Part shown: piece after piece, positions 3,496-17,095 of the stretch
Layout: each line of letters starts with the position of its first letter
Numbering within the stretch: position 1 is the first letter of the stretch
IMG/VR virus record: IMGVR_UViG_3300028914_000001
Location: 93,489-157,488 of that record
DNA from: a virus
Lineage: Duplodnaviria > Heunggongvirae > Uroviricota > Caudoviricetes
Reading direction: 5' to 3' (one strand)
DNA: 64,000 nucleotides
Notes under the pieces: model-generated
The model's database searches: none
What the model saw: only the letters and a program-made list of their open reading frames with translations
What the model was told of the DNA's origin: nothing
Program-made: the position numbers and the translations under genes

Positions 3496-4151
3496 GCAAG
3501 TTTAGCTGACTTGAACTCATCCAGCGAGTTCAAGATACTGATGACACATTTTTTAACATTTTTGGTGTTCGGATATTCCGTCACACCGTTTCTTTCAAGC
3601 ATACGAATAACCTCCGTAGACTTAACCAAGTTGCTCGTATTGCGTTCTACCGTCGATACCGACCTGCTTACGCCACCAACCCTTCCATCCCTGGTAAAAT
3701 TGGGCCCGCCGGACATTCCAACCTGCAGTAGTCCATTCATGCGATAAAAACTAGGTTCGCCTTCATAGTTGTACAACAAGCGTATATCCATCGGTATAAT
3801 AGTCGGATTATGCTCGATAAACGGCTGAGGATAACCATACGCAGTTAGCTTCTCCCCGATAGGCAGTTCCGTATGGGCTAAGCGGCATACCATAGGCAAT
3901 GAGGTAGGAGTCTCTTTCAACTTTAACAAGGCAATATCAGACAGCGAGTCGTAATCCACTATACGGACCTGGTAGCAAGTATCATTCTTCATGTCATAAT
4001 AGCATGCATGTCTATAATTCGACACTACATGATATGCAGTCACAATGTACTTGCTGTTTACAAAGAACCCCGTTCCTCCATGCACATCCTCGACAACCTC
4101 AGCAAAGGAAGCGCAAGCGAACAACAAAATGATAGCGAGTAGTTTTTTCAT
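3483..4151 (-). CDS. secreted trypsin-like serine protease
   Basis: Signal peptide; GTGFFV, TAYHV (His), DIALLKL (Asp), GMSGGP (Ser). Confidence 0.88.
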   Translation of the reverse strand: MKKLLAIILLFACASFAEVVEDVHGGTGFFVNSKYIVTAYHVVSNYRHACYYDMKNDTCYQVRIVDYDSLSDIALLKLKETPTSLPMVCRLAHTELPIGEKLTAYGYPQPFIEHNPTIIPMDIRLLYNYEGEPSFYRMNGLLQVGMSGGPNFTRDGRVGGVSRSVSTVERNTSNLVKSTEVIRMLERNGVTEYPNTKNVKKCVISILNSLDEFKSAKLAWEL

Positions 4152-4177
4152 GATGTTACCTCTTTGTTTACACCTAA

Positions 4178-4206
4178 AATATACCTAATTAAATGTTTCC
4201 CGGCAA
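4178..4206 (-). promoter_or_regulatory. sigma70-type promoter TTGCCG-N17-TATATT
   Basis: Read directly, upstream of the protease and ligase C-half. Confidence 0.6.
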
Positions 4207-4223
4207 CACCTTTAATGTAAAAT

Positions 4224-5567
4224 TTAATTTACAACCTTATCGACCTGCGGAATCACTTCGCCGTGACGGGAGATTTCCACCTTGCAACCAATCTGAATAC
4301 CCATCTGCATCATCTTGTTCAAGTTCGAGAGGGAAGCTCGTTCGACAGTCACCCCGTCAAGCTCGGTCGGAACCAAGATGGCAACAGGGGAGAGATAACG
4401 ACCCTTGCAGCTCCATTCTATTCCAATTAGAGTTGTAATCGCCGTTTCCAGCTCGAACTTCACAGCACACTGAGTCATCGGGGTCTTTCTACGGAGGTCG
4501 TCATAGTCGATGTCGTTAATCTTGACGACAATGCCGTCGCAACCATAGTCGATAGTCTTCTTGCGGCTTGCATACACCTTTTCACGGAACGCATTTACCT
4601 GTTCGAGGGTATCGACCAGCTCGTACATCGGGACTTCAAATCCGCAGGATTCGAGCCACTGCATCTTTTCCAGCTCGGTCTTGAACTGGGTCGGAGCCCT
4701 GTTAAGAACATCGTATGCAACGAAGGACATATCTTCCGAACCAGAACCATCAAGACGCTTGGAGAGGCCAGCACTTGCGTTACGGGCCGTCTTCTTCGTC
4801 TGGGAATACTTTTCGAGGAACATGCTTTCCTTCAACATGAACTCGCCACGGATTGAACCAGTGAAGTTCGGAATGCTATGGACAAGACCCTTCCATTTCA
4901 AGGCAGACTGCGTGATGTCCTCACCCTGGAAACCATCGCCACGGGAAATCGCCTGAACTACCTGGCCATCCTGATACATTACTTCACTTCCAGCTCCATC
5001 GCACTTGCCGTTCAGCATGAGACGGTGCGTGCTTCCATACTGCGGGAACCATTCCTTCTCAAATTCTTCCATGTTGGCAAACTTCTGCTGAGTGCCAGTT
5101 ACAAGGTAATGCGGGTACTTCTTTCGCCCCGTATCGTCCGAGGCAGCCAAACCGCCCGCAGCCAACGGGTTCTTCGGGTTGATTTGGCGGAGTTCGAGAA
5201 CAAGGGCGTCGTAAATTTCGTCGGACGCTTTTTCACGGCCATTGTAGTATTCCTTAGCGATGTAATCGATTACTTCACTCAGCAAGGCTTCACGGTCAAG
5301 CGCCTTGCCCTTCTTCGAGTTCGCCGTGACCGCAATATCCGATGCGGCACTGACAGACATTTTAAGCTCGTCGGCAAACACCTCTGGGCGAAGACCCGCA
5401 CCTCGCAGGAGTACGGAATACTTGTAGTAGACATCGTCCTCATCGTTTCCGTATTTTGCGAAATCGGATTCGGCAAGGATGTTCATAACGACCATATCAA
5501 TAGCCGTCTGCAAGCCACCAGTAGGCAGCTTAGGGGCAAGATGTTCAATAAATTCAATGTTCTGCAT
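4224..5567 (-). CDS. ligA: NAD+-dependent DNA ligase, N-terminal half (Ia, adenylation, OB fold)
   Basis: YYNG..SDEIYDAL (Ia), KCDG motif I, SRGDGFQGEDIT, IRGEF, RNASAG, DGIVVK, AVKF, ends RHGEVIPQV. Confidence 0.92.
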   Translation of the reverse strand: MQNIEFIEHLAPKLPTGGLQTAIDMVVMNILAESDFAKYGNDEDDVYYKYSVLLRGAGLRPEVFADELKMSVSAASDIAVTANSKKGKALDREALLSEVIDYIAKEYYNGREKASDEIYDALVLELRQINPKNPLAAGGLAASDDTGRKKYPHYLVTGTQQKFANMEEFEKEWFPQYGSTHRLMLNGKCDGAGSEVMYQDGQVVQAISRGDGFQGEDITQSALKWKGLVHSIPNFTGSIRGEFMLKESMFLEKYSQTKKTARNASAGLSKRLDGSGSEDMSFVAYDVLNRAPTQFKTELEKMQWLESCGFEVPMYELVDTLEQVNAFREKVYASRKKTIDYGCDGIVVKINDIDYDDLRRKTPMTQCAVKFELETAITTLIGIEWSCKGRYLSPVAILVPTELDGVTVERASLSNLNKMMQMGIQIGCKVEISRHGEVIPQVDKVVN

Positions 5568-7968: not shown

Positions 7969-7999
7969 CATATGTTTTATCTTTCGGCTTTGCAATTAG

Positions 8000-8073
8000 T
8001 ACCCGAGACAGGGGTCGAACCTGTCACCAACGGTTTAGAAGACCGTCGCTCTAGTCCACTGAGCTACTCGGGC
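8000..8073 (-). tRNA. tRNA-Arg(UCU)
   Basis: Full cloverleaf, loop CTTCTAA. Confidence 0.92.
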
Positions 8074-8084
8074 AAGTTCATTAG

Positions 8085-8158
8085 TCGGCAGAGTGGGACT
8101 CGAACCCACAAAATCTTGGGTTTGAACCAAGCACGTATACCAGTTCCATCACCTGCCG
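8085..8158 (-). tRNA. tRNA-Leu(CAA), short variable loop (atypical)
   Basis: Loop TTCAAAC, Leu-type D arm, 5-nt variable loop. Confidence 0.8.
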
Positions 8159-8165
8159 AATTTAG

Positions 8166-8249
8166 TCGGTAAGGGGGGACTCGAACCCCCACGTCCTTAC
8201 GGACACCAGCCCCTCAAGCTGATGCGCCTACCAGTTCCGCCACCTACCG
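8166..8249 (-). tRNA. tRNA-Leu(GAG)
   Basis: Class II cloverleaf. Confidence 0.92.
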
Positions 8250-8267
8250 AGATGGAAATAAAAGTAA

Positions 8268-8349
8268 TCGGAAAGGTGGGACTCGAACCCACACACCTTT
8301 CAGCACAAGAGCCTAAATCTTGCGTGTCTACCAGTTCCACCACAATCCG
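8268..8349 (-). tRNA. tRNA-Leu(UAG)
   Basis: Class II cloverleaf. Confidence 0.92.
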
Positions 8350-8363
8350 AAAAAAAGTTATAG

Positions 8364-8436
8364 CAGGACGTGATGGACTCGAACCACCGACTAACAGTTT
8401 TGGAGACTGCAGACCTACCAACTGGTCGAACGCCCT
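8364..8436 (-). tRNA. tRNA-Trp(CCA)
   Basis: Cloverleaf, loop CTCCAAA. Confidence 0.92.
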
Positions 8437-8469
8437 GTAATGGATGGCCTTTCGGCCACCCGAATGAAA

Positions 8470-9807
8470 CTACTCTTCGGTGTTTCCATTCATCTTTTCG
8501 TACTCAGCAATGTACTTGAAGATACCGTCGCTGAATCCGTTGATGTGAATGAACTTACCGTATTCAATTCCGTTCTGGTACGTTGCTACGTTCACAATGT
8601 ACTTGTGCGGAATTCTGAGTACTTCCTTGCTGAAGTAGCTACCAGAAGACTGTTCGTCCGTAATGATAATCAATCGGTCGAACGGTCTGTTGTTAGCCTT
8701 GACAGCATCGTTCGTGCTTCTCTGGATGTCAGTACCACCCATAGAACGAGCACAACGGTCAGCAAGAGAGAAACCCTTCTCCGTGCAAAGATGTGCAGTA
8801 TTGTCAAAGGTGTAGACCTTCGTGAACTCGCACACTTCGTTCATGATAGCAGCGATGGAAGCTGCTGCCTGAGCACGGGTGACTTCGCCCTTGCCGGACA
8901 ACTGACAACTCATGGAACCCGACGTGTCAACCATGAAGAGAGTGTTCCCTTCAAGCTTGTCGAACGTTTCCCTGGCGGATTGAAGCATTGCTGCTTCAAG
9001 CTGCTTGGAGTATGTTCCAGCGCTGTACTTGTTGGCCGTATAGAAGTTGTACGGCATGACACCACGAACATTCATCTTCTCGATGCCATCCACGATTGCT
9101 CGTTGTGACACCTTTGCCTGCTCCATGTTGCGGAGGTTCCTCAACAGGGCAAGCGCACCGAGCCTGTTCTGGGAAAGAAGGTTCTCGAAGACTTCCTTCT
9201 TATCCTTGCCTGCGCTCAACTCAGTTTCCCAGGTAAGCGGTGTTGCAAGGCTGTCGTCCACAATCTTCTTGTAGAGAGCGTTCGTTTCGTCGTTCGGGGC
9301 CTTCGGGTGGCAAAGCATGACCGCATCCTTCAAGGAAACCGTCTTCTTCGTGCCCTTGTACTTACCGAACTGGTACTCGTCGAACTTGGCGAATGCCAAT
9401 GCGAGACCCTTCTGCAACTGCTTCGGCAACGTCTTCTTGCCTTCCGCAAGGAACATTGCAAGCAACTCGGTGATGTCATCAACACGGGTTACGGTCGAAT
9501 TGACAAGTTCCTTGGTAAGCTTGCCTTGCTGTGCAAGAACAGTCAGCATGAACAACGGGGTATGACGAAGGTGATATTCGTGTTTTACCTTGTTCAATGT
9601 TGCAATGGCGAACTCGGTGCTGACCTTGCCCATGTACTCCTTGATGCGGTCCTTGACCGACTGACCGTCCTCATAGAACGTATCCTCGTTCAAAAGACAG
9701 CTGAGCACGGTACGCTGCAGCTTCTCCTCGTAGCCAATGTGTGATGCCTTTCCACCCTCGTAAGTAGACACCGGGGTAGATACCTTTCTCTTGTTAATCG
9801 ACGCCAT
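8470..9807 (-). CDS. rsr: Ro60/TROVE-domain RNA-binding protein with C-terminal vWA
   Basis: TYEGGKA, LRHTP, AFAKFDEYQFGKY, LKDAVMLCHPK, TWETELS, ALLRNLRNM; MIDAS DTSGSM, GGT, IIITDEQ; AAGGAG RBS before MASINK. Confidence 0.93.
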   Translation of the reverse strand: MASINKRKVSTPVSTYEGGKASHIGYEEKLQRTVLSCLLNEDTFYEDGQSVKDRIKEYMGKVSTEFAIATLNKVKHEYHLRHTPLFMLTVLAQQGKLTKELVNSTVTRVDDITELLAMFLAEGKKTLPKQLQKGLALAFAKFDEYQFGKYKGTKKTVSLKDAVMLCHPKAPNDETNALYKKIVDDSLATPLTWETELSAGKDKKEVFENLLSQNRLGALALLRNLRNMEQAKVSQRAIVDGIEKMNVRGVMPYNFYTANKYSAGTYSKQLEAAMLQSARETFDKLEGNTLFMVDTSGSMSCQLSGKGEVTRAQAAASIAAIMNEVCEFTKVYTFDNTAHLCTEKGFSLADRCARSMGGTDIQRSTNDAVKANNRPFDRLIIITDEQSSGSYFSKEVLRIPHKYIVNVATYQNGIEYGKFIHINGFSDGIFKYIAEYEKMNGNTEE

Positions 9808-9853
9808 AATCATCTCCTTTGTTGATTAGGAATTGTTGATGTTGAAAAAATAT

Positions 9854-9992
9854 TGCCAGATGCCGGACTCGAACCGACAACTTCCTGCTTGGATTATCTA
9901 AGTAGCACATCCAACGCCACAGACCATATGGACTGGGAAAAAGCGAACGTGAACATTGAGGGCTGGCGCTCTACCTATTGAGCTAATCTGAC
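9854..9992 (-). ncRNA. tRNA-framed Y-like RNA 1 (139 nt)
   Basis: Acceptor GTCAGAT/ATCTGGC, D arm and TTCGAGT T arm; anticodon loop replaced by a conserved insert. Confidence 0.8.
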
Positions 9993-10002
9993 ATAAATGT
10001 AG

Positions 10003-10147
10003 TGCCGATGGAAAGATTCGAACTTTCAATAGTTTTTAGCTAAGTAACTCTCACTATCGCAGCGGTTTCCCGAGAAAAGCGCAAGAGGAACATTTCCCCT
10101 GCCAGTTATCAACCTGTGACACAGATTGACGGGGAAATAACATCGGC
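10003..10147 (-). ncRNA. tRNA-framed Y-like RNA, D arm replaced by a long hairpin (145 nt)
   Basis: Acceptor GCCGATG/CATCGGC, T arm GAAAG-TTCGAAT-CTTTC, insert with TTTTCTCGG-GAAA-CCG...TTACTTAG. Confidence 0.7.
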
Positions 10148-10160
10148 ATAAAAATTGTAG

Positions 10161-10294
10161 TACCATAGGCTGGATTTGAACCAACGACCACAAGTTCCTC
10201 ATCGAAGTAAGCCATTCAAACGTCACCTTTTCAGGGAAAAAAGACGAAAGGCGATTTCATATACTCGTGCTCTACCAGACTGAGCTACTATGGT
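10161..10294 (-). ncRNA. tRNA-framed Y-like RNA 2 (134 nt)
   Basis: Acceptor ACCATAG/CTATGGT, D arm, T arm; CGAGT/ACTTG stem enclosing the insert. Confidence 0.8.
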
Positions 10295-10301
10295 ATTTTA
10301 G

Positions 10302-10385
10302 AGGAGAGAACAGGGTTCGAACCTGCGTGTCGTTTCCGACAAAGCTTTAGCAAAGCTCCGCTTTTACCAATTCAGCCATCTCTCC
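10302..10385 (-). tRNA. tRNA-Ser(GCU)
   Basis: Class II cloverleaf. Confidence 0.9.
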
Positions 10386-10389
10386 ATAA

Positions 10390-10463
10390 TGTGCTTGGCC
10401 AGAGTCGAACTGGCGACCTACAGTTTAGGAAACTGTTGCTCTATCCAGCTGAGCTACAAGCAC
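10390..10463 (-). tRNA. tRNA-Arg(CCU)
   Basis: Cloverleaf, loop TTCCTAA. Confidence 0.92.
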
Positions 10464-10470
10464 AAGCGGA

Positions 10471-10752
10471 TTACTTCAATGTATCATCAGTGTATTCCAA
10501 CGATACCTTGTCATTGCCGAAAAAGATTTCGACAGTAACAGTGTAAACCTTTTCAGTGTTGTACCTGTCCCAAACTCGCCACAACTTGGCACCAACGGAA
10601 GCTGCGGCACCCTGGAAGATGTCGCATACGCTATTAAGGACATCCTTCTTAGGCAAGGTCGTATCTTTGCTATCGACCGTTTTAAGCAACTTCGCCATCT
10701 TGTCAGCAACGGCTGCCTTTACAGCATTAACATCATTCAATGATGCACTCAT
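10471..10752 (-). CDS. hypothetical protein inside the tRNA array
   Basis: AAAGGAG RBS before MSASLND, 93 aa. Confidence 0.75.
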   Translation of the reverse strand: MSASLNDVNAVKAAVADKMAKLLKTVDSKDTTLPKKDVLNSVCDIFQGAAASVGAKLWRVWDRYNTEKVYTVTVEIFFGNDKVSLEYTDDTLK

Positions 10753-10780
10753 ATCATCTCCTTTACTGTTTAACATTTCG

Positions 10781-10865
10781 AGCGCACGGTAAGAGTCGAA
10801 CTTACGTGGGCGTTCAGCCTAGAGGTGTTGCAGACCTCCCCCTTCGACCGCTTGGGTACGTGAGC
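10781..10865 (-). tRNA. tRNA-Cys(GCA) with long variable arm (atypical)
   Basis: Loop CTGCAAC, U73, 16-nt variable region, Tyr-like D arm. Confidence 0.8.
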
Positions 10866-10869
10866 AAAA

Positions 10870-11470
10870 ATCGCCATTCTCTTTATAACAAACCGAATGG
10901 CGAAGGCCGTGTATCCTTATATAGACACAATCATCCACGCTTATGTACACTAACATGGCCAGTTTTTCGGATTCACCGCAGGGAACAGTACCTGATTGTA
11001 ACAACGAAGACGTCTGTTATCTTGACTTAATGCACCTCTTGCAACAACATTGCTGTACCCGCCCTCATTAAGGACCTGCCTCTATTCGGAACGGCAGCTG
11101 CAATTCTTTGTCGGTACACATGGGCTTTAATACCCACATTCCTTCGTGCAATATATCCTGTTAGAAAGAACAGGAACTTGTGCATCATCTTCTTCCCTTG
11201 GCTTCCACACCTTGAATGAGAGCAGTCTGCCCTCACCGATTTGGGTTTAACTAATCGGGATGATGCATCGGGAATCACACGGATAGTAGCATGCCAGTCA
11301 CGGTGAACTATCTGCGTCCTATCCATAACTACCGCCAACTGCATTGTGGCGAAGACGGCAGTCATTTTTTAGTGATTGTGGAAAATCTTGTCGGCACCCG
11401 TTATGTGGCTTTCGCCGCAACCTTTGGCTTTTATAACGTGTCTTGCAACACATGACCATCTTTCAGTGCC
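10870..11470 (-). ncRNA. candidate large structured ncRNA (~600 nt)
   Basis: More than ten visible hairpins; no convincing CDS. Confidence 0.55.
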
Positions 11471-11477
11471 TATTTAG

Positions 11478-11550
11478 TTGGGGTAGCTGGACTCGAACCA
11501 ACGAATATGGGAATCAAAATCCCATGTCTTACCAACTTGACGATACCCCA
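11478..11550 (-). tRNA. tRNA-Gln(UUG)
   Basis: Cloverleaf. Confidence 0.92.
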
Positions 11551-11557
11551 GTAATAG

Positions 11558-11630
11558 TACCCCATCAAGGGTTCGAACCTTGGACCCGCTGATTAAGAGT
11601 CAGCTGCTCTTCCAACTGAGCTAATGAGGC
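11558..11630 (-). tRNA. tRNA-Lys(CUU)
   Basis: Cloverleaf. Confidence 0.93.
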
Positions 11631-11639
11631 GAAACTTCG

Positions 11640-11712
<73 letters not shown>

Positions 11713-11716
11713 ATAG

Positions 11717-11789
11717 AGCGGATAATGGGGTTCGAACCCACAACAACCTGCTTGGAGGGCAGGAACTCTACCAGTTGAGCTACATCCGC
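11717..11789 (-). tRNA. tRNA-Gly(UCC)
   Basis: Cloverleaf, U73. Confidence 0.92.
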
Positions 11790-12119
11790 AAAATTAGTTA
11801 ACCTTCGTGAATTCGAACCACGACACAGAACGAACCGAAGCCCGTTGTGCGCCAAACCTGGAGGCTAAGATTTGTGCACCAATCTATTGCACCATCAGCT
11901 CTTTGGGACGCTGACACCCCACCTTCATCTCGGGACGGTGCGAAACGCTATCTATTTGACACTCGCCAAGGCATAGAATTATCCTTATGTGAAGTTCACC
12001 CGCATTACCAGATACGGTTTTCGACGCCATATCCTTCCTGCCCTTTTTACTTCCAACTTTAGAGGCCGTTTGATTTGCAATGTCATCACAGTAAATAAAC
12101 GGTAAGAAAGCAAGATTCG

Positions 12120-12195
12120 TGGGCCCCCCGAGACTTGAACTCGGAAAACCTTCGGGTTATGAGTCCGCTGCTCTGACCTATTGAGCTAGAGGCCC
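12120..12195 (-). tRNA. tRNA with CAU anticodon, Ile2-like
   Basis: GGGCCTC acceptor typical of Ile2; weak anticodon stem. Confidence 0.7.
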
Positions 12196-12342
12196 AGAAA
12201 CAATTTGATTAGGATAGCACCAATGAGCAGCACGTTGTATTACTACAACTCGGTCTCACAGCTACCATTTCCCTCCCTTGGAGGAGAGCGTATTAAGCAC
12301 TCAGCATTACTACATTGAGTTCATTTATACGACTAATCTTAG

Positions 12343-12473
12343 CGCCAGCGGCAGGACTCGAACCTACGACCCCGAGCTTCCTAATGCTAAGTAACCCATT
12401 CCAAAACGCCACCCTTGCGGGAGAAAATGCGGACAGGTGTTGTACGTGCTCTAACCAACTGAGCTACGCTGGC
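12343..12473 (-). ncRNA. tRNA-framed Y-like RNA 3 (131 nt)
   Basis: Acceptor GCCAGCG/CGCTGGC, D arm, T arm; insert capped by CCC-GCAA-GGG. Confidence 0.8.
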
Positions 12474-12480
12474 AAAAAAA

Positions 12481-12575
12481 ATCCAGGTAAATGCAGAAAC
12501 CGATGTGCCCATCGCAAGGCACTATACATTAAGAGTGTACAAGGTCTATGTATCGGTTATCTATCGACACTGGAT
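12481..12575 (-). ncRNA. free Y-like RNA A (~95 nt)
   Basis: ATCCAG-TGTCG-ATA-GATAACCGAT ... ATCGGTTTCTGCA-TTTAC-CTGGAT. Confidence 0.6.
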
Positions 12576-12585
12576 GAATTTCTAG

Positions 12586-12714
12586 TACCAGGGGCAGGAC
12601 TCGAACCTACGACCACGAGCTTAACAGGCTAAGTAACCCGTTCCAAACGCCACCCTTGCGGGAGAAAAACGGACAGGTATTTTTACGTGCTCTAACCAAC
12701 TGAGCTACCCTGGA
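12586..12714 (-). ncRNA. tRNA-framed Y-like RNA 4 (129 nt)
   Basis: Near-identical insert to RNA 3, inside a tRNA frame. Confidence 0.8.
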
Positions 12715-12723
12715 GAAAAATTA

Positions 12724-12810
12724 AAGTCAGGTAAAAGACGAAAGCGCATTGCCATAGGCGAACGGATTTGCAGTCTGTTTCTAAGTAACGCTTTCAAACG
12801 ACACTGACTT
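12724..12810 (-). ncRNA. free Y-like RNA B (~87 nt)
   Basis: AAGTCAG-TGTCG-TTT-GAAAGCG-TTACTTAG ... CGCTTTCGTC-TTTTAC-CTGACTT. Confidence 0.7.
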
Positions 12811-12812
12811 AG

Positions 12813-12901
12813 TGGGTTGAATAGGAGTCGAACCTACAATGTTTACCCAGAGGGAACGGATTTACAGTCCGTTGCGAAACCACCATCCTCGCAGTCAACC
12901 C
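12813..12901 (-). tRNA. tRNA-Tyr(GUA)
   Basis: Class II cloverleaf. Confidence 0.88.
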
Positions 12902-12916
12902 AAATAAAATTGTTAC

Positions 12917-12989
12917 TGGAGCATAGGAGATTCGAACTCCTGACCCCCTGCGTGCAAAGCAGGTGCTCTACCAACTGAGCTAATACCCC
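12917..12989 (-). tRNA. tRNA-Ala(UGC)
   Basis: Cloverleaf, G3-U70. Confidence 0.94.
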
Positions 12990-13050
12990 ATAAATTGCAA
13001 AGCCAAAATTTCAATCAGCGGGCTAACAACTCGTGTCAACCACGGTCAGA

Positions 13051-13079
13051 AAGATAGAAACTAAGACATCGTTTGTCAA
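13051..13079 (-). promoter_or_regulatory. sigma70-type promoter TTGACA-N17-TATCTT
   Basis: Positioned to drive the distal half of the array, including the Y-like RNAs and rsr. Confidence 0.7.
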
Positions 13080-13113
13080 GGGTTTCTACCAAAATTTTCA
13101 AACTTTTTTTTAG

Positions 13114-13195
13114 TCGGGTACGTGAGATTCGAACCCACACTCCTCGCAGAACATCGCCCTGAACGATGCGTGTCTACCAATTCCACCAGAACCCG
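13114..13195 (-). tRNA. tRNA-Leu(CAG)
   Basis: Class II cloverleaf. Confidence 0.92.
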
Positions 13196-13201
13196 AAGTA
13201 G

Positions 13202-13276
13202 TTGCGGAGAACGGACTTGAACCGTTGACACACGGATTATGATTCCGTTGCTCTAAACCAACTGAGCTACACCGCA
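13202..13276 (-). tRNA. tRNA-Met(CAU), elongator-like
   Basis: Loop ATCATAA; lacks the fMet GGG/CCC stem. Confidence 0.8.
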
Positions 13277-13560
13277 TCGGTGATGACGCTTTTGGACTAT
13301 CAGTCTACGGTCTTTCATAGCAGGTACGTCATCGTGGGCAACCTCAAACTTCTCCAGTTGTAGTCGTTTGCCACCTCGGGTTCGTAAGCACCTCGCATGC
13401 TTCAACCCGTCATTAGCTCTTTTACGAGAAGAACGCTAATGGCCTTTTAAATGGCGGCGTTTTAGCCTGTCACCGAGCAGGGGCCACGTTTCCCGTCCAT
13501 CCCATGCCCGTCTCGGCATGATTGACTCAAATTGACGGGACCCGCCTTGCAAGCACAACA
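13277..13560 (-). ncRNA. candidate structured ncRNA (~280 nt)
   Basis: Nested hairpins: CCCGTC/GACGGG, CATTAGC/GCTAATG, CGGGTT/AACCCG, GATGACG/CGTCATC. Confidence 0.5.
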
Positions 13561-13578
13561 AAATCATAGAATAGTTAG

Positions 13579-13649
13579 TCCGCCAGTCGAGACTCGAACT
13601 CGAACTAAGGGAATCACAATCCCTTGTGCTACCGTTACACCACTGAGGG
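13579..13649 (-). tRNA. tRNA-His(GUG), degenerate acceptor stem
   Basis: Loop TTGTGAT; C-C mismatch in acceptor, A73. Confidence 0.65.
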
Positions 13650-13654
13650 GGTAG

Positions 13655-13729
13655 TACTCCCAATAGGATTCGAACCTATGACCCCTTGCTTGTAAGGCAA
13701 GCGCTCTGAACCAACTGAGCTATGGAAGT
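13655..13729 (-). tRNA. tRNA-Val(UAC)
   Basis: Cloverleaf. Confidence 0.92.
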
Positions 13730-13737
13730 AAATTTAG

Positions 13738-13820
13738 CGCAACCAGCGAGACTTGAACTCGCACGCCCATAGGGCACCAGCGTGACAGGCTGGCCTGGCT
13801 ACCAATTTCAGCATGGCTGC
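13738..13820 (-). tRNA. tRNA-Asp(GUC) with long variable arm (atypical)
   Basis: Loop CTGTCAC, G73, variable hairpin GCCC-TAT-GGGC, Leu-type D arm. Confidence 0.8.
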
Positions 13821-13827
13821 ATACATA

Positions 13828-13901
13828 TAGCTCCAACGGGACTCGAACCCGTATTACCGCCTTGAGAGGGCGACGAACTAGGCCAGTTATTCGATAGAGC
13901 C
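13828..13901 (-). tRNA. tRNA-Glu(CUC)
   Basis: Cloverleaf. Confidence 0.9.
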
Positions 13902-13907
13902 AAAATA

Positions 13908-14092
13908 CAATGGATAGGTGAATATGCGGAGTATCACCGTGACAGCTTCCCCGTACCGATGCGAAATCTGCTTATAACCTAAAACAAACCGTTTCGCTTT
14001 TACGCCTATCTTGTCGGCACGTATATCTGTCGTAGCTGGCATGTAGGTTGTTCCTTCAGGCAACCAGCCCGCTGAACAGAGTTCTATCCAAT
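13908..14092 (-). ncRNA. candidate rod-like ncRNA (~185 nt)
   Basis: TGGATAG/CTATCCA closing stem with stacked helices GACAG/CTGTC, GTGCCGA/TCGGTAC, GCGAAA/TTTCGC. Confidence 0.5.
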
Positions 14093-14097
14093 GTTAG

Positions 14098-14174
14098 TGA
14101 CACTAGCAGGACTCGAACCTGCGACCTTCTCGTTCGTAGCGAGACGCTCTAAATTCCGACTGAGCTATAATGCC
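14098..14174 (-). tRNA. tRNA-Arg(ACG)
   Basis: Cloverleaf. Confidence 0.92.
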
Positions 14175-14183
14175 ATAAAAGTA

Positions 14184-14256
14184 AGCGTCATGTCGGACTC
14201 GAACCGACGACCTTCTCCATGGCAAGGAGACGCTCTACCAACTGAGCTAATGACGC
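14184..14256 (-). tRNA. tRNA-Gly(GCC)
   Basis: Cloverleaf, U73. Confidence 0.93.
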
Positions 14257-14264
14257 AGTAAAAG

Positions 14265-14357
14265 AAGCGAGGGTGGGATTCGAACCCACGGATGACAGGG
14301 CCACTGCCACCGACGGTTTTCAAGACCGCTGCAATAAGCCAGCTCTACCACCTCGCC
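14265..14357 (-). tRNA. tRNA-Ser(UGA)
   Basis: Class II cloverleaf, long variable arm. Confidence 0.9.
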
Positions 14358-14365
14358 ATATTTAG

Positions 14366-14439
14366 TCGGAATGGCAGGATTTGGACCTACGACCTCTTGC
14401 TCCCGAAGCAAGCGCTCTACCAGACTGAGCTATATTCCG
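14366..14439 (-). tRNA. tRNA-Pro(CGG)
   Basis: Cloverleaf; T loop variant TCCAAAT. Confidence 0.88.
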
Positions 14440-14440
14440 A

Positions 14441-14728
14441 AATTTATTTAAACACAAACTTACAGGCGTCCTAATTTCAAGGACGGATTAAGGAGCACAC
14501 TTGGTGGTTAACCCAAAGTTTATCTCCCCCATTCTTATTTCAAATGGTCTCACGTGGCATATTTTAGTAGAGCCAATACTACACCTCTGCGACCATCATT
14601 CTGGTATTCATCTAATTCGCAGAGACAGATTCCTCATCCCTGAGTTTTCCCCATCAGGGTTAGCCCGTTAGCATGAAATCAAGAACGATGCAACACGGGT
14701 TCTACTCATTTGTGTTTAAACAAAGTTT
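14441..14728 (-). ncRNA. candidate structured ncRNA closed by a terminal inverted repeat (~290 nt)
   Basis: TTTAAACACAAA/TTTGTGTTTAAA ends; internal CCCTGA/TCAGGG, CTCTGCGA/TCGCAGAG, CGTCCT/AGGACG. Confidence 0.5.
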
Positions 14729-15045
14729 GATGAATTCGAGGAGCTGCGGGGGTTACGGCATCCTTTCCGCTTGTCGCCGAGGCCATCGGTTTGTCATCTA
14801 TGTTGCGAACGGGCTCACCTACTAGCCCTTACATAGACCGAAGATGGTTATCGTTACCATTTAATAGCAGGCTTCATCACGCCTCCCGTCCATCGATATC
14901 CGAACGAAACGGGTCTGGCCCTCAATGACGGACATTTAGCCAGATGTTTTCTAACTCCGACAGTAAGACTCGAACTTACGACCTGAGCTTTAGGTGACTA
15001 CTTATGGCTACTGAGTGAACCATATTACACCTATAATTTAATTAG

Positions 15046-15118
15046 CTCCGATGGAGAGACTCGAACTCCCGACCAGCTCATTACGAATGAGCTGCTCTAC
15101 CAACTGAGCTACAACGGA
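15046..15118 (-). tRNA. tRNA-Thr(CGU)
   Basis: Cloverleaf, loop TTCGTAA. Confidence 0.88.
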
Positions 15119-15124
15119 ATGTAG

Positions 15125-15198
15125 TAGCGCCAACGGGACTCGAACCCGTATTGCCGCCTTGAAAGGGCGATGAACTAGGCCAGTTATTCGATAGCGCC
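15125..15198 (-). tRNA. tRNA-Glu(UUC)
   Basis: Cloverleaf, near copy of Glu(CUC). Confidence 0.9.
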
Positions 15199-15208
15199 AA
15201 AAATATAG

Positions 15209-15282
15209 TCCGCAACCCTGGACTCGAACCAGGAACCTCCACCTTATCAGAGTGGCTATCTAACCAGTTGCTATAGCTGCGG
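15209..15282 (-). tRNA. tRNA-Ile(GAU)
   Basis: Cloverleaf, loop CTGATAA. Confidence 0.88.
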
Positions 15283-15369
15283 ATAAAAACAATAGGTGGG
15301 TGGTTTATAACCACCAAAATCCCACCCCGTGGGCACCTACTTTGTTTCACCTATTGTTTAATACTTTCG

Positions 15370-15443
15370 TGCCAGCTTCTGGAGTCGAACCAGACTACTC
15401 GGATTTTCAGTCCGGCCCAATCACCGGGTTTGGGTTAGCTGGC
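15370..15443 (-). tRNA. tRNA-Phe(GAA)
   Basis: Cloverleaf, loop CTGAAAA. Confidence 0.85.
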
Positions 15444-15539
15444 AAAATGATTGACCAAGAATCACGAAGGAGTCCAACCTTCCACATGGACTGAGCCATC
15501 GCCAGCGGGAACATTGAGACCCTTGGCCAATCGAGTTAG

Positions 15540-15613
15540 TAGCGGGGGCAGGACTCGAACACTGCGACCTTTGGGTTATGAGCCCAACAAGCTACCAACT
15601 GCTCCACCCCGCA
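15540..15613 (-). tRNA. initiator tRNA-fMet(CAU)
   Basis: 1:72 mismatch, GGG/CCC anticodon stem; one extra base in the T stem. Confidence 0.85.
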
Positions 15614-15626
15614 AATTTCTTCATAG

Positions 15627-15699
15627 TTGCCGTTGAGCGGTTCGAACGCCCGAATACAGGAGTCAGAGTCCTGTGCCTTACCAGCTTGGCGAAACGGCA
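15627..15699 (-). tRNA. tRNA-Gln(CUG)
   Basis: Cloverleaf, loop CTCTGAC. Confidence 0.92.
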
Positions 15700-15707
15700 A
15701 TAAATAG

Positions 15708-15778
15708 CTCACGTTAAAGGAATCGAACCTTTGTTTCCCGCTGCAGACAGGCAACTCTTCCAGTTAAGCTAAACGTGA
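15708..15778 (-). pseudogene. tRNA-like gene with degenerate anticodon arm (identity undetermined)
   Basis: Perfect acceptor and T arm; anticodon loop TCTGCAG lacks U33. Confidence 0.6.
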
Positions 15779-15781
15779 ATA

Positions 15782-15854
15782 AGCCTGTGGAGAGGCTCGA
15801 ACTCCCGACCAGATGCTTACAAAGCAACTGCTCTACCAACTGAGCTACACAGGC
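15782..15854 (-). tRNA. tRNA-Thr(UGU)
   Basis: Cloverleaf. Confidence 0.92.
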
Positions 15855-15859
15855 GATAA

Positions 15860-16240
15860 AACAACTTCACCAATTCCACCATCATATCGGCCTACACCGA
15901 TATTAACTTCTCCCGCTCCCGAAGCGAGTGTGTCTCCTGATTACAAAGCTAAAATGCTCAGGCTAATAGGCGGCCCTTTTCGGTTGGGTTCCCACAATGG
16001 AGCTACCATCACGATTATCACAACCTATTAGGGGCCGCTTTTCACCTGCGGATGTTTCTGGGAGCTACCCAGAGGTCCATTCTAAACTTGGGGCGTCGTT
16101 TTGCTTTACCGTCCCTACCGTCCCGGCCAGACTTCCTGCGCACTCCGTACTAGCCTGCGAATTTCGTTTCAGCGGATGTATATGCGGTAGTTAACTACCA
16201 CCTGGGAACTATGCCATAACCTGTGTCAACATCCTTTTAA
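15860..16240 (-). ncRNA. candidate structured ncRNA with pseudoknot (~380 nt)
   Basis: GCGGCCC/GGGCCGC crossing AATAGG/CCTATT, plus several hairpins. Confidence 0.5.
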
Positions 16241-16246
16241 ATTTAG

Positions 16247-16319
16247 CTGACATGACTGGACTCGAACCAGTGACCAGACGATTAACAGTCGCCGACTCTA
16301 CCTACTGAGCTACATGTCA
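16247..16319 (-). tRNA. tRNA-Asn(GUU)
   Basis: Cloverleaf, G73. Confidence 0.92.
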
Positions 16320-17095
16320 ATAATATCCCTGGGCACCACCCCTTTCACATGTTGTCATGGGTGCGTCAGGATTGGACGCAGAAAGCTTTACTCAAAGCTA
16401 ACGAACCTACCGCCTGTAACGATGGGTAAACACCGAATGGAGGAAATAGGACCAATTACCGATTACCTTTTACCATTTTAGACGGATTTGTTGTCGGTTG
16501 TGGCACCAAACCCCAACGAACTGGCCGTCGCCAGACATAGAGTTTGCAAACCGTCAGAAAGCCACTTTACCATAAAGCATATACCGAAGTATATACCGAT
16601 GGTTCTCGTCCATCCAACACAAACTGGAAGGACAATAGTCGGGGTAGCCAGATTCGAACTGACGACATCCTGCTCCCAAAGCAGGCGCTCTACCAGACTG
16701 AGCTACACCCCGCAAGTTTTTAAGGTGCTTCCGGCACCACCGTTGAACGGCATAGCGGTTACTCACCGCTAGGAAACGCTGTCGTTCCCTTATTCGGAGA
16801 CCTCCATATGAAGACCCCCGAAAAAGAGAACGCAAGAACGATGCCTTCCGACCTGTATCGAACAAGGCGTTTTCAACATTGCTGCTGACGGTTCCCTCAC
16901 CTACGGGTACACCGTTCTCAACGTCATGATTGTTTAAATCACCCAACACAGTCCATTGCCAAGACTATCATGTGTGAGTAAGGTTATCAACCTAGCAACT
17001 TTTGCAAAGCCGAAATGTCAATCTTCTGAAAGGACTCACGGTCCAATCTGACGCAGGAAAGTAAGTTCGAAACCTTGACTGTTCCCGTTTACGTC
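16320..17095 (-). ncRNA. candidate giant structured ncRNA enclosing tRNA-Pro
   Basis: Dense hairpins on both sides of the tRNA; 17041-17055 is complementary to 16362-16377. Confidence 0.55.
16639..16712 (-). tRNA. tRNA-Pro(UGG)
   Basis: Cloverleaf. Confidence 0.93.

What the first reader, a model, noticed from the sequence alone, without database searches (positions are those of the whole stretch)
12343..12810. Tandem units pair a free Y-like RNA with a tRNA-framed one: both permutations side by side
Transcript order is free B (12724-12810), framed 4, free A (12481-12575), framed 3. The free RNAs carry the same helix with strand order reversed. CAG-TGTCG-(TTT/ATA)-GA comes first and the pyrimidine strand plus TTTAC-CTG comes last, which is conventional Y RNA polarity, with no tRNA arms. 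B also holds the TTACTTAG box and a Cys-like anticodon loop (GA-CTGCAAA-TC). The ~240-bp duplication suggests a two-RNA functional unit and shows how the permutation could arise.
Basis: partly seen in the sequence, partly recalled or inferred. Interest (0 to 1): 0.75.

Follow-up and report, generated by a model that had tools for sequence, protein, structure and literature searches.

The report
Phage Y RNAs interleaved with tRNA-shaped ones
Between tRNA genes of a giant rumen phage sit two ordinary-topology Y RNAs (partners of the Ro60 protein) alternating with two tRNA-shaped Y RNAs that carry the same protein-binding helix in reversed strand order; this shows both layouts co-existing in one operon and bears on how Y RNAs evolved from tRNAs.

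Summary
On the minus strand the order is tRNA-Tyr, free B (12724-12810), framed F4 (12586-12714), free A (12481-12575), framed F3 (12343-12473). A Ro60/Rsr gene lies 2.5 kb downstream on the same strand.

The free elements are conventional-polarity Y RNAs. A covariance model built only from Y RNAs next to distant phage rsr genes finds free B as the only significant hit in the 64-kb window (E 0.005). In six related contigs it ranks all 12 free A and B orthologues above every other match. The shared helix covaries strongly (13 of 15 pairs change on both sides).

F3 and F4 carry the same module as an internal hairpin, strands swapped, inside a real acceptor/D/T frame.

Three points need correcting:
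- Free B is not free of tRNA parts. Its apex copies the anticodon and variable arms of the neighbouring tRNA-Tyr.
- A fixed 1:1 two-RNA unit is not supported.
- The arrangement is not unique. Three unrelated phage rsr loci also place conventional and tRNA-ordered Y RNAs side by side.

The free RNAs belong to a known family. The tRNA-ordered partner and the tRNA-punctuated layout are a new variant.

The parts
12715..12812 (-). Free B: conventional-polarity Y RNA. The core stem-closed element is 12724-12810. The outer limits are the ends predicted if the 3' end of tRNA-Tyr and the 5' end of F4 are cut by tRNA-processing enzymes.
   Evidence: Only window hit of the independent CM R2 (22.1 bits, E 0.0054). 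R1 gives 26.8 bits. 14 of 15 model pairs form. Fold.
12794..12803 (-). Free B candidate Rsr-recognition motif on the 5' strand: a bulged U, then GU (paired with AC), then CG-UUUGA in the internal loop.
   Evidence: Aligned by cmsearch to the GGUGUAG / GGCGNAG motif of distant Y RNAs. Compare GNCGAA(N0-1)G of YrlA/YrlB in PMC4201824.
12781..12788 (-). UUACUUAG box. It is shared by free B and four of the five framed RNAs (F2 has UUACUUCG), and occurs as UUACUUC in distant phage Y RNAs.
   Evidence: It probably equals the conserved YUAY of YrlA.
12751..12778 (-). Free B apical module: an anticodon-arm-like hairpin (loop CUGCAAA) plus a 3-bp hairpin. It is a copy of the tRNA-Tyr anticodon and variable arms.
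   Evidence: Local alignment 27/33, score 19, against a shuffle maximum of 13-14. Repeat family D13.
12724..12746 (-). Free B 3' (pyrimidine) strand: helix I 3' strand, loop GUCUUUU, AC, helix II 3' strand.
12586..12714 (-). Framed F4: a tRNA-ordered Y RNA with an open 7-bp acceptor stem, D arm, Y-module hairpin with swapped strands, box, a hairpin with loop CUGUUAA, and a T arm.
   Evidence: R3 115 bits; acceptor 6/7, D 4/4, T 5/5 pairs. Fold. Conserved in six contigs.
12474..12585 (-). Free A: conventional-polarity Y RNA (core 12481-12575) with two apical hairpins. The first has a pyrimidine-rich 7-nt loop, CUCUUAA.
   Evidence: MFE z-score -3.2, and -5.1 for the L014 orthologue. Orthologues score 22-28 bits with R1 (E 6e-4 to 0.012), with L012 at 17.3 and L009 at 12.9 bits. 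The window copy itself is below threshold.
12343..12473 (-). Framed F3: a tRNA-ordered Y RNA, paralogue of F4 (88% identical).
   Evidence: R3 109 bits; acceptor 7/7.
12812..12901 (-). tRNA-Tyr(GUA), directly upstream of free B. It is the source or sibling of free B's apical arms.
   Evidence: ARAGORN; alignment.
13051..13079 (-). Sigma-70-like promoter (TTGACA, 17 nt, TATCTT) upstream of tRNA-Ala, tRNA-Tyr, free B, F4, free A and F3.
   Evidence: This is a consensus match only.
8470..9813 (-). rsr: Ro60 orthologue (TROVE plus Ro60 vWA domains), downstream on the same strand.
   Evidence: Pfam. E 1.4e-26 to Thermus phage phiLo Ro60 (9KOP/9L5Y) over nearly the full length.
9854..10294 (-). Three further framed Y RNAs (F1 9854-9992, F1b 10003-10150, F2 10161-10294) abutting rsr, with no free RNA between them.

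Best explanation
Free A and free B are Y RNAs of the ordinary topology. Their 5' and 3' ends pair to form the Ro60/Rsr-binding module: helix II, a bulged U, two base pairs, an internal loop carrying G-N-C-G, helix I, then a UUACUU box. A variable apical module sits on top.

They are interleaved with F4 and F3. These carry the same module as an internal hairpin with the strands in the opposite order, set inside a genuine tRNA frame. In effect they are YrlA written in tRNA order.

All four are probably transcribed with tRNA-Ala and tRNA-Tyr as one precursor. They would then be cut apart by the tRNA-processing enzymes: RNase P at each tRNA or framed 5' end, and RNase Z or another 3'-end activity at each CCA-less 3' end. 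That cutting would also set the ends of the free RNAs.

The released RNAs would bind the phage Rsr. By analogy with the bacterial and Thermus phage Ro60-Y RNA-PNPase complexes, they would couple it to host factors, with different apical modules giving different partners.

Shown here: sequence anatomy, family membership, covariation, conservation, and recurrence in other phages. Inferred: co-transcription, processing, Rsr binding, and function.
For: (1) A CM built only from Y RNAs beside rsr in distant phages (34-41% Rsr identity) finds free B as the sole window hit below E 0.01, both strands, filters off. In six related contigs the 12 free A and B orthologues are the top 12 hits.

(2) Covariation on 25 family members, including free B and two free A orthologues: 94.8% of cells paired against 64% in shuffles; 13 of 15 pairs change on both sides; score 0.82 against 0.22 shuffled and 0.09-0.17 slid. 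Between A and B three pairs differ on both sides.

(3) Between phage clades (84% Rsr identity) the first 30 nt of free B are identical and its 3' strand is near-identical, while the apex is replaced. This is the pattern expected for a conserved binding module with a variable effector module.

(4) rsr is present on the same strand and is a full-length Ro60 homologue.

(5) Tandem arrays mixing tRNA-less and tRNA-like Y RNAs are the rule at phage rsr loci: 192 hits in 71 loci, all on the rsr strand. This matches YrlA plus YrlB made from one precursor in M. smegmatis (PMC4201824).

(6) The framed topology is real. Thirteen framed RNAs have different acceptor sequences, each with 6-7 of 7 pairs formed within its own unit. 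In the CM census they score 98-118 bits, against 71 or less for everything else.

(7) None of 31 tRNAs encodes CCA. About two thirds, and four of five framed RNAs, share a CUA trailer, which suggests common 3' processing.

(8) M. smegmatis YrlA is cut by RNase P and receives CCA in vivo.

(9) Contigs from metatranscriptome libraries of three studies cover free A and/or free B at 95% identity or better. This is weak support, because DNA carry-over is not excluded.
Against: - The window's own free A copy is not detected by the independent models. Its box has degenerated to ACAUAG, so its status rests on orthologues and on anatomy.
- The 5' motif is GUCG followed by UUUGA or AUAGA, not the published GNCGAA.
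- Rfam YrlA and Y_RNA give nothing on the free elements.
- The pair lies 2.5-3 kb from rsr, whereas most family members lie within about 0.6 kb.
- Free B's fold is not more stable than shuffles (z -1.1).
- No RNA ends, strand or Rsr binding could be examined. Only assembled contigs were available.
Confidence: 0.7

Rival explanations
1. The free elements are structured inter-tRNA spacers. They would be relics of partial duplications of the framed module, or simple processing hairpins, that are degraded after tRNA maturation and have no role of their own.
For: They occupy exactly the spacers between tRNA-like genes. The window's free A has a degenerate box and fails the independent CM. Free B's apex is deleted in three clade-2 contigs. 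The free B fold is not unusually stable.
Against: Both basal strands are conserved across clades while the apex turns over. Helix pairs are kept through double changes between A, B and distant Y RNAs. All 12 orthologues outrank noise with a model that never saw them. Other spacers in the array are 3-15 nt.
Confidence: 0.15
2. The free RNAs are Rsr-binding competitors or decoys. Their job would be to titrate Rsr away from, or hand it over to, the tRNA-shaped Y RNAs. On this view the pair is a regulatory couple rather than two independent adaptors.
For: The same binding module sits on two very different scaffolds encoded back to back. Free-framed adjacency recurs in L151, L153 and L142.
Against: There is no 1:1 stoichiometry in any locus. 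Three framed RNAs next to rsr have no free partner. Multiple Y RNAs per Ro60 are common without any such model.
Confidence: 0.08
3. The functional RNA is a conventional YrlA read across the junction: F4's 3' half, then free A as a giant acceptor-loop insert, then F3's 5' half. On this view the 'free' and 'framed' units are mis-parsed.
For: Any tandem of permuted units contains the conventional order. The F4 3' acceptor strand could pair with the F3 5' acceptor strand at 6 of 7 positions, because F3 and F4 are paralogues. A conventional CM hit spans a framed-framed junction in L153.
Against: Acceptor strands covary within each unit across 13 framed RNAs with unrelated acceptor sequences. F2, F1b and F1 cannot pair across their junctions. 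The free A stem closes on itself with z -3.2 to -5.1.
Confidence: 0.03
4. The free elements are intrinsic terminators or attenuators that partition the tRNA array into transcription units.
For: In the window free A's stem is followed by eight U, and free B's stem by a U-rich tract.
Against: The terminator scan reports nothing there. The U run shrinks to 3-4 U in all six related contigs. An RNA-library contig runs through free A into F3 and beyond (X16 record 11).
Confidence: 0.04

Closest known systems
Mycobacterium smegmatis YrlA + YrlB (Chen et al. 2014, PMC4201824)
   Same: A tRNA-like Y RNA and a tRNA-less Y RNA are encoded together near rsr and processed from one precursor. YrlA has a 7-bp acceptor stem, is cut by RNase P and receives CCA, so the mature particle has an open acceptor end like F3 and F4.
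   Different: There the open acceptor end is made by cleavage, which leaves a two-piece RNA whose Rsr helix is formed by the original ends. Here the acceptor ends are the gene's own ends and the Rsr helix is a closed hairpin. The locus here is embedded in a 36-gene tRNA array, and the free RNAs sit between tRNA-like genes.
Salmonella Typhimurium YrlA/YrlB and Rfam RF02553 (structure 6CU1; bioRxiv 10.1101/312249)
   Same: Modular build: an Rsr-binding stem with a 5'-strand GNCG motif, a YUAY element, and T and D arms. The authors describe YrlA as a circularly permuted tRNA and propose that it originated from dimeric tRNA transcripts.
   Different: RF02553 does not match the free elements. In the window it scores only tRNA-tRNA junctions. 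F3 and F4 have tRNA order (D arm before T arm), the reverse of YrlA.
Thermus phage phiLo Yrl1/Yrl2 with phage Ro60 (PMC12135203)
   Same: Phage-encoded Ro60 (E 1e-26 to the window's Rsr) with two conventional stem-bulge-stem Y RNA-like genes upstream. In vitro they assemble with host PNPase.
   Different: No tRNA-shaped partner and no tRNA array are described there. The motif is CGAA rather than GUCG-UUUGA or GUCG-AUAGA.
Deinococcus radiodurans Yrn1/Yrn2
   Same: Several Y RNAs per Rsr. Yrn1 has its T-like and D-like elements in a different orientation from YrlA, which shows that topology can vary.
   Different: In Yrn1 the Rsr helix takes the acceptor position and is formed by the RNA ends. 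Here the acceptor is genuine and the Rsr helix is internal.
Circularly permuted tRNA genes of Cyanidioschyzon merolae (cited in bioRxiv 10.1101/312249)
   Same: Natural circular permutation of a tRNA-shaped RNA gene, with both orders giving the same fold.
   Different: Those are precursors re-joined into normal tRNAs. Here both orders appear to be end products with a Ro60-binding module.

Membership tests
Rsr/Ro60-associated Y RNA without tRNA elbow (YrlB / Yrl type) | Encoded near rsr on the same strand | tested here: met
   Same strand, 2.7-3.0 kb upstream of rsr (8470-9813), within one tRNA/Y array. Caveat: most family members lie within about 0.6 kb of rsr.
Rsr/Ro60-associated Y RNA without tRNA elbow (YrlB / Yrl type) | 5' and 3' ends form a stem interrupted by a bulge or internal loop | tested here: met
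   MFE folds. 14-15 of 15 model pairs form in all orthologues.
Rsr/Ro60-associated Y RNA without tRNA elbow (YrlB / Yrl type) | Conserved 5'-strand motif GNCGAA(N0-1)G (Chen 2014) or CGAA (phiLo) | tested here: inconclusive
   GUCG is present at the right place after a bulged U. It is followed by UUUGA (B) or AUAGA (A), not AA. Distant phage relatives show GGCGNAG or GGUGUAG at the same position.
Rsr/Ro60-associated Y RNA without tRNA elbow (YrlB / Yrl type) | Significant match to a covariance model of rsr-linked Y RNAs built without the candidates | tested here: met
   Free B: E 0.0023-0.0054. Free A orthologues: E 6e-4 to 0.012. The window's free A copy alone is below threshold.
Rsr/Ro60-associated Y RNA without tRNA elbow (YrlB / Yrl type) | Helices kept by compensatory changes | tested here: met
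   13 of 15 pairs change on both sides; 0 of 500 shuffles reach the score.
Rsr/Ro60-associated Y RNA without tRNA elbow (YrlB / Yrl type) | Accumulates as a discrete RNA bound by Rsr | not testable with these tools
   Only assembled contigs of RNA libraries were available. They cover the elements but show no ends or strand.
YrlA (Rfam RF02553) | T arm, closed acceptor-like stem-loop and D arm between the two Rsr-helix strands | tested here: not met
   No RF02553 match of 13 bits or more on the free elements. Free A and B have no T or D arm. F3 and F4 have them, but in tRNA order with an open acceptor stem.
tRNA | Cloverleaf with acceptor, D, anticodon and T arms | tested here: not met
   ARAGORN and the Rfam tRNA model do not call free A or B. 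Free B holds only a copy of the tRNA-Tyr anticodon and variable arms.
Intrinsic terminator | GC-rich hairpin directly followed by a conserved U run | tested here: not met
   No call at these sites. The U run is not conserved in related contigs.

The most novel reading that the evidence does not exclude
The array is a tRNA-punctuated Y RNA operon. The tRNA-ordered Y RNAs would serve twice: as Rsr partners, and as built-in RNase P/Z processing signals that release the conventional Y RNAs.

The apical arms of the set imitate anticodon arms. Free B carries a tRNA-Tyr-derived arm with GUA changed to GCA. F4 has an invariant Asn-type loop, CUGUUAA. Free A has a Lys-type loop, CUCUUAA or CUUUUAC. These arms would act as decoys for host anticodon nucleases, or as guides that bring Rsr and host nucleases or repair enzymes to damaged tRNAs.

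In addition, the locus would preserve living intermediates of the tRNA-to-Y RNA transition.
Probability: 0.12. Interest if true: 0.85.

Novelty: new variant of a known kind. Interest (0 to 1): 0.63.

Why it matters
Y RNAs are thought to descend from tRNAs. YrlA has been described as a circularly permuted tRNA that arose from dimeric tRNA transcripts, but no natural intermediates were known (bioRxiv 10.1101/312249).

This locus has three things in one co-oriented array next to Ro60:
- ordinary tRNAs
- tRNA-ordered RNAs that carry the Ro60-binding module
- conventional Y RNAs, one of which still holds a copy of its neighbour tRNA's anticodon and variable arms

The same side-by-side arrangement recurs in three unrelated phages. 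That makes the origin question testable by comparison.

It also offers a simple experimental system. One Ro60 and seven RNAs carry one binding module on different scaffolds. This allows a direct test of whether module topology, an open acceptor end or the apical arm decides what Ro60 is coupled to. It further suggests that tRNA punctuation is a general way for phages to make Y RNAs.

Tried and rejected
- **Rfam, gathering and E-value modes**. No Y_RNA or YrlA match on the free elements. YrlA hits in the genome are tRNA-tRNA junctions.
- **BLAST of the region against 50,697 phage records**. Only tRNA matches; no close relative is listed.
- **Degenerate DNA pattern scan of viral contigs**. More than 113 single hits, essentially chance; only the sister contig had two.
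- **Single-strand nhmmer profiles of the 5' or 3' strand**. Nothing significant; the motifs are too short without structure.
- **The genome search with R1 on the window's own record**. Its first-look filter missed even free B, so it says nothing.
- **Reads laid from four RNA libraries**. Contigs only, so ends, strand and level cannot be read. Stretches without cover and contig break points were not interpreted.
- **Free A apex against the phage tRNAs**. Only the 9-nt loop region equals tRNA-Lys(CUU), which is not above shuffles, so a Lys-mimic reading of free A is not supported statistically.
- **Regex and acceptor-pairing scan for framed RNAs**. Several calls (L144, L154, L172, L179, L193, L205, L194, L206, L209) were tandem conventional YrlAs or chance, and were dropped. 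L139 stays ambiguous.
- **Terminator reading of the free elements.** Rejected.
- **A recent single 240-bp duplication.** Rejected, because both phage clades already have all four elements, and A and B share only their basal strands.

Full report
**Context**

The window lies in a 175-kb IMG/VR viral record. A sister contig of 419 kb (L011) and DNA runs from bovine and sheep gut mark it as a giant rumen phage. On the minus strand, 7999-16712 holds 36 ARAGORN tRNA genes. Inside this array, 8470-9813 (minus) encodes a 447-aa protein with TROVE and Ro60-vWA domains. It matches the solved Ro60 of Thermus phage phiLo over nearly its full length (E 1.4e-26). A Ro60/Rsr orthologue therefore lies 2.5-3 kb downstream of the finding, on the same strand.

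**The observation**

Read on the minus strand, the order is tRNA-Tyr (12901-12812), free B (12810-12724), F4 (12714-12586), free A (12575-12481), F3 (12473-12343).

Free B runs as follows:
- AAGUCAG
- a bulged U
- GU
- CGUUUGA
- helix I
- the UUACUUAG box
- two small hairpins
- the helix I return strand
- GUCUUUU
- AC
- CUGACUU

Free A has the same plan, with AUCCAG/CUGGAU as the closing helix and GUCG-AUAGA as the loop motif.

In F3 and F4 the pyrimidine strand comes first. A CCC-GCAA-GGG hairpin closes the module, and the U-GG-CG strand plus UUACUUAG comes second. All of this sits between a D arm and a T arm inside a 7-bp acceptor stem.

**Are the free elements Y RNAs? An independent test**

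A search with the Rsr protein found six close contigs (93% and 84% Rsr identity) and many distant phage rsr loci. In the distant loci L015-L019 the DNA just upstream of rsr holds tandem RNAs with a common plan: helix II, one bulged base, GG, (C/U)GNAG, helix I, UUACUUC, a variable apex, helix I return, CG.UUG.U, CC, helix II return. Some have T and D arms in YrlA order and some have none.

I built covariance model R1 from six tRNA-less examples of L015, L017 and L018. I built R2 from 14 examples of L015-L019. Neither used any sequence from the window's clade.
- R2, run without filters over the whole 64-kb window on both strands, gives one hit below E 0.01: free B (22.1 bits, E 0.0054; the next hit has E 0.56).
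- R1, run without filters over the six related contigs, ranks all 12 free A and B orthologues above every other match. Scores are 12.9-28 bits for these 12, against 12.4 bits or less for noise. Clade-2 free A copies score 22-28 bits.
- The window's own free A is not detected. Its box has degenerated to ACAUAG.

On an alignment of 25 family members that includes free B and two free A orthologues:
- 94.8% of cells are paired, against 64% in shuffles.
- 13 of 15 pairs change on both sides.
- The covariation score is 0.82, against 0.22 for shuffles and 0.09-0.17 for slid partners.

Between free A and free B, three pairs differ on both sides.

**Conservation pattern**

Both phage clades carry free B, F4, free A and F3 in the same order. 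Between clades, free B's first 30 nt are identical and its 3' strand is nearly so. Its apex is replaced or deleted. F4 is 89% conserved. A fixed basal module under a changeable apex is what is expected of a Y RNA, where the base binds Ro60 and the apex binds something else.

**The framed partners carry the same module with swapped strands**

In all five framed RNAs the hairpin can be drawn as helix I, internal loop, two pairs, a bulged U and a short helix II. In the clade-2 orthologues the loop motif of the framed RNAs takes the same variants seen on the 5' strand of distant conventional Y RNAs: UGGUGUAG in F1, UGACGCAG in F2, UGCGAUAG in F3 and F4. Helix pairs show compensatory changes between clades.

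The tRNA frame is genuine. Thirteen framed RNAs from four phage lineages have unrelated acceptor sequences, yet each pairs 6-7 of 7 positions within its own unit, with D stems 4/4 and T stems 5/5.

**The arrangement is not unique**

Model R2 finds 192 Y RNAs in 71 distant phage rsr loci. All are on the rsr strand, usually two to six in tandem within about 600 nt of the gene. They mix 60-100-nt (tRNA-less) and 120-150-nt (YrlA-type) forms.

Scans for tRNA order, followed by reading the sequences, showed true framed RNAs in three distant loci:
- L151: a conventional Y, then a framed one, then a conventional Y, with spacers of 13 and 4 nt.
- L153: three conventional Ys, then two framed.
- L142: two framed plus a mini version, then three conventional Ys.

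None of these three loci has a conventional YrlA.

A model of the framed type (R3) separates them cleanly. Framed RNAs score 98-118 bits. One ambiguous tandem (L139) scores 71, and tRNAs and YrlA junctions score 57 or less.

Each rsr locus thus seems to have a tRNA-like Y RNA in one order or the other, plus tRNA-less ones. The tRNA-ordered form is rare (3 of 76 distant loci in the R3 census, plus this clade) but recurrent.

1. Free B is not free of tRNA parts. Its apex aligns 27/33 with the anticodon arm and the start of the variable arm of the tRNA-Tyr gene 94 nt upstream. The local score is 19, against a maximum of 13-14 in shuffles. The 'Cys-like' loop is a Tyr loop with U35 changed to C. 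Free A's apex shows no significant tRNA similarity.

2. A fixed two-RNA unit is not supported. F2, F1b and F1 abut each other with no free RNA between them, and the other phages show other ratios.

3. On the 240-nt period: F3 and F4 are 88% identical, and A and B are 71-77% identical in their basal strands only. Since both clades already have all four elements, the evidence fits an old duplication of a free-plus-framed segment. One RNA-library contig from a related phage has a second copy of free B where the window has free A (X18 record 19). This hints at ongoing exchange, but it is a single contig at depth 5.

**How it most likely works (inference)**

A sigma-70-like promoter lies at 13079-13051. 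No terminator-like site lies between it and F3. The U run after free A is not conserved.

None of 31 tRNA genes encodes CCA. Most, and four of the five framed RNAs, share a CUA trailer after the discriminator. The framed RNAs therefore look like substrates of the same 5' and 3' tRNA-processing enzymes. There is a precedent: M. smegmatis YrlA is cut by RNase P and given CCA in vivo, and YrlA and YrlB come from one precursor (PMC4201824).

Cutting at the tRNA-Tyr 3' end, at both F4 ends and at the F3 5' end would release free B (about 98 nt) and free A (about 112 nt), each with its closing helix a few bases from each end.

Binding to Rsr and coupling to host PNPase are inferred from D. radiodurans, Salmonella and Thermus phage phiLo (PMC4201824; PMC12135203).

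Contigs from metatranscriptome libraries of three studies cover free A and/or free B. Contigs cannot show ends or exclude DNA.

**Comparison with what is known**

The free RNAs are new members of the known class of tRNA-less bacterial and phage Y RNAs (YrlB, Yrn2, Yrl1/2). They fail the test for YrlA.

I found no description of the tRNA-ordered partner in the papers searched. The literature describes YrlA as a circularly permuted tRNA with a closed acceptor loop, notes a different orientation in Yrn1, and proposes an origin from dimeric tRNA transcripts.

F3 and F4 are the un-permuted counterpart. Their coexistence with conventional Y RNAs, one of which retains a neighbour tRNA's arms, is directly relevant to that model. 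Tandem copies are the standard route between circular permutants, and conventional order can be read across framed-framed junctions (L153 4012-4145). The direction of change remains open.

**Verdict**

It is wrong on 'no tRNA arms' and over-reaches on a 1:1 functional unit. The locus is a new variant of a known system and of real interest to the Ro60/Y RNA field. Its expression, ends and binding are untested.

Noticed in passing
L151:5646-5773; L153:3953-4075 and 4089-4214; L142:3349-3474 and 3580-3704: tRNA-ordered (framed) Y RNAs also occur beside rsr in three unrelated phage contigs (Rsr 38-41% identical). They are always next to conventional Y RNAs, and these loci have no conventional YrlA.
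   Followed up: yes
L142:3480-3565: A 'mini-framed' element. A 7-bp closing stem (GGGGAGA/UCUCCCC) encloses a Y module in swapped strand order, followed by an AUACUUC box. It has no D or T arm.
   Followed up: no
window 11790-12118 (minus): A 330-nt non-coding stretch between tRNA-Met and tRNA-Gly that ends in a T-arm-like hairpin (CGUGG-UUCGAAU-UCACG). RNA-library contigs cover it at high depth (X15 up to about 1650, X16 233). It has no Rfam or ARAGORN call and may be another structured RNA.
   Followed up: no
window 12196-12342 (minus): The 147 nt downstream of F3 fold into a closed multi-hairpin structure (-42 kcal/mol, z -3.1) with a repeated UGUAGUAAU motif. The matching place in L011 (3004-3105) gives a weak R1 hit (10 bits).
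   Followed up: partly
window 7999-16712 (minus): None of 31 Rfam-called tRNA genes encodes CCA. About two thirds have CUA directly after the discriminator, as do F4, F3, F2 and F1b. This may be a shared 3'-processing signature.
   Followed up: partly
window 12339-12893, run X18 record 19: A 566-nt contig from a gut metatranscriptome library matches F3, then a second exact copy of free B (12728-12806), then F4, free B and tRNA-Tyr. This is a related phage with free B in the place of free A. It is a single contig at depth 5.
   Followed up: no
window 10003-10150 (minus): Framed F1b keeps the acceptor stem, T arm, Y hairpin and box, but its D arm is replaced by a long, very stable hairpin (whole element z -3.6).
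   Followed up: no
window 12387-12394 with 12371-12386; L010/L011/L013/L014 F3 orthologues: The hairpin after the box in F3 has an 8-nt loop (AUUAGGAA) in clade 1 and a 7-nt CUGCAAA loop in clade 2. A similar AUUAGGA loop closes the V arm of a conventional YrlA in L019 (about 5405-5420).
   Followed up: no
L139-L212 (for example L146:3410-3953): Phage rsr loci commonly carry two to six tandem Y RNAs on the rsr strand: 192 CM hits in 71 loci, and six in L146 alone.
   Followed up: partly
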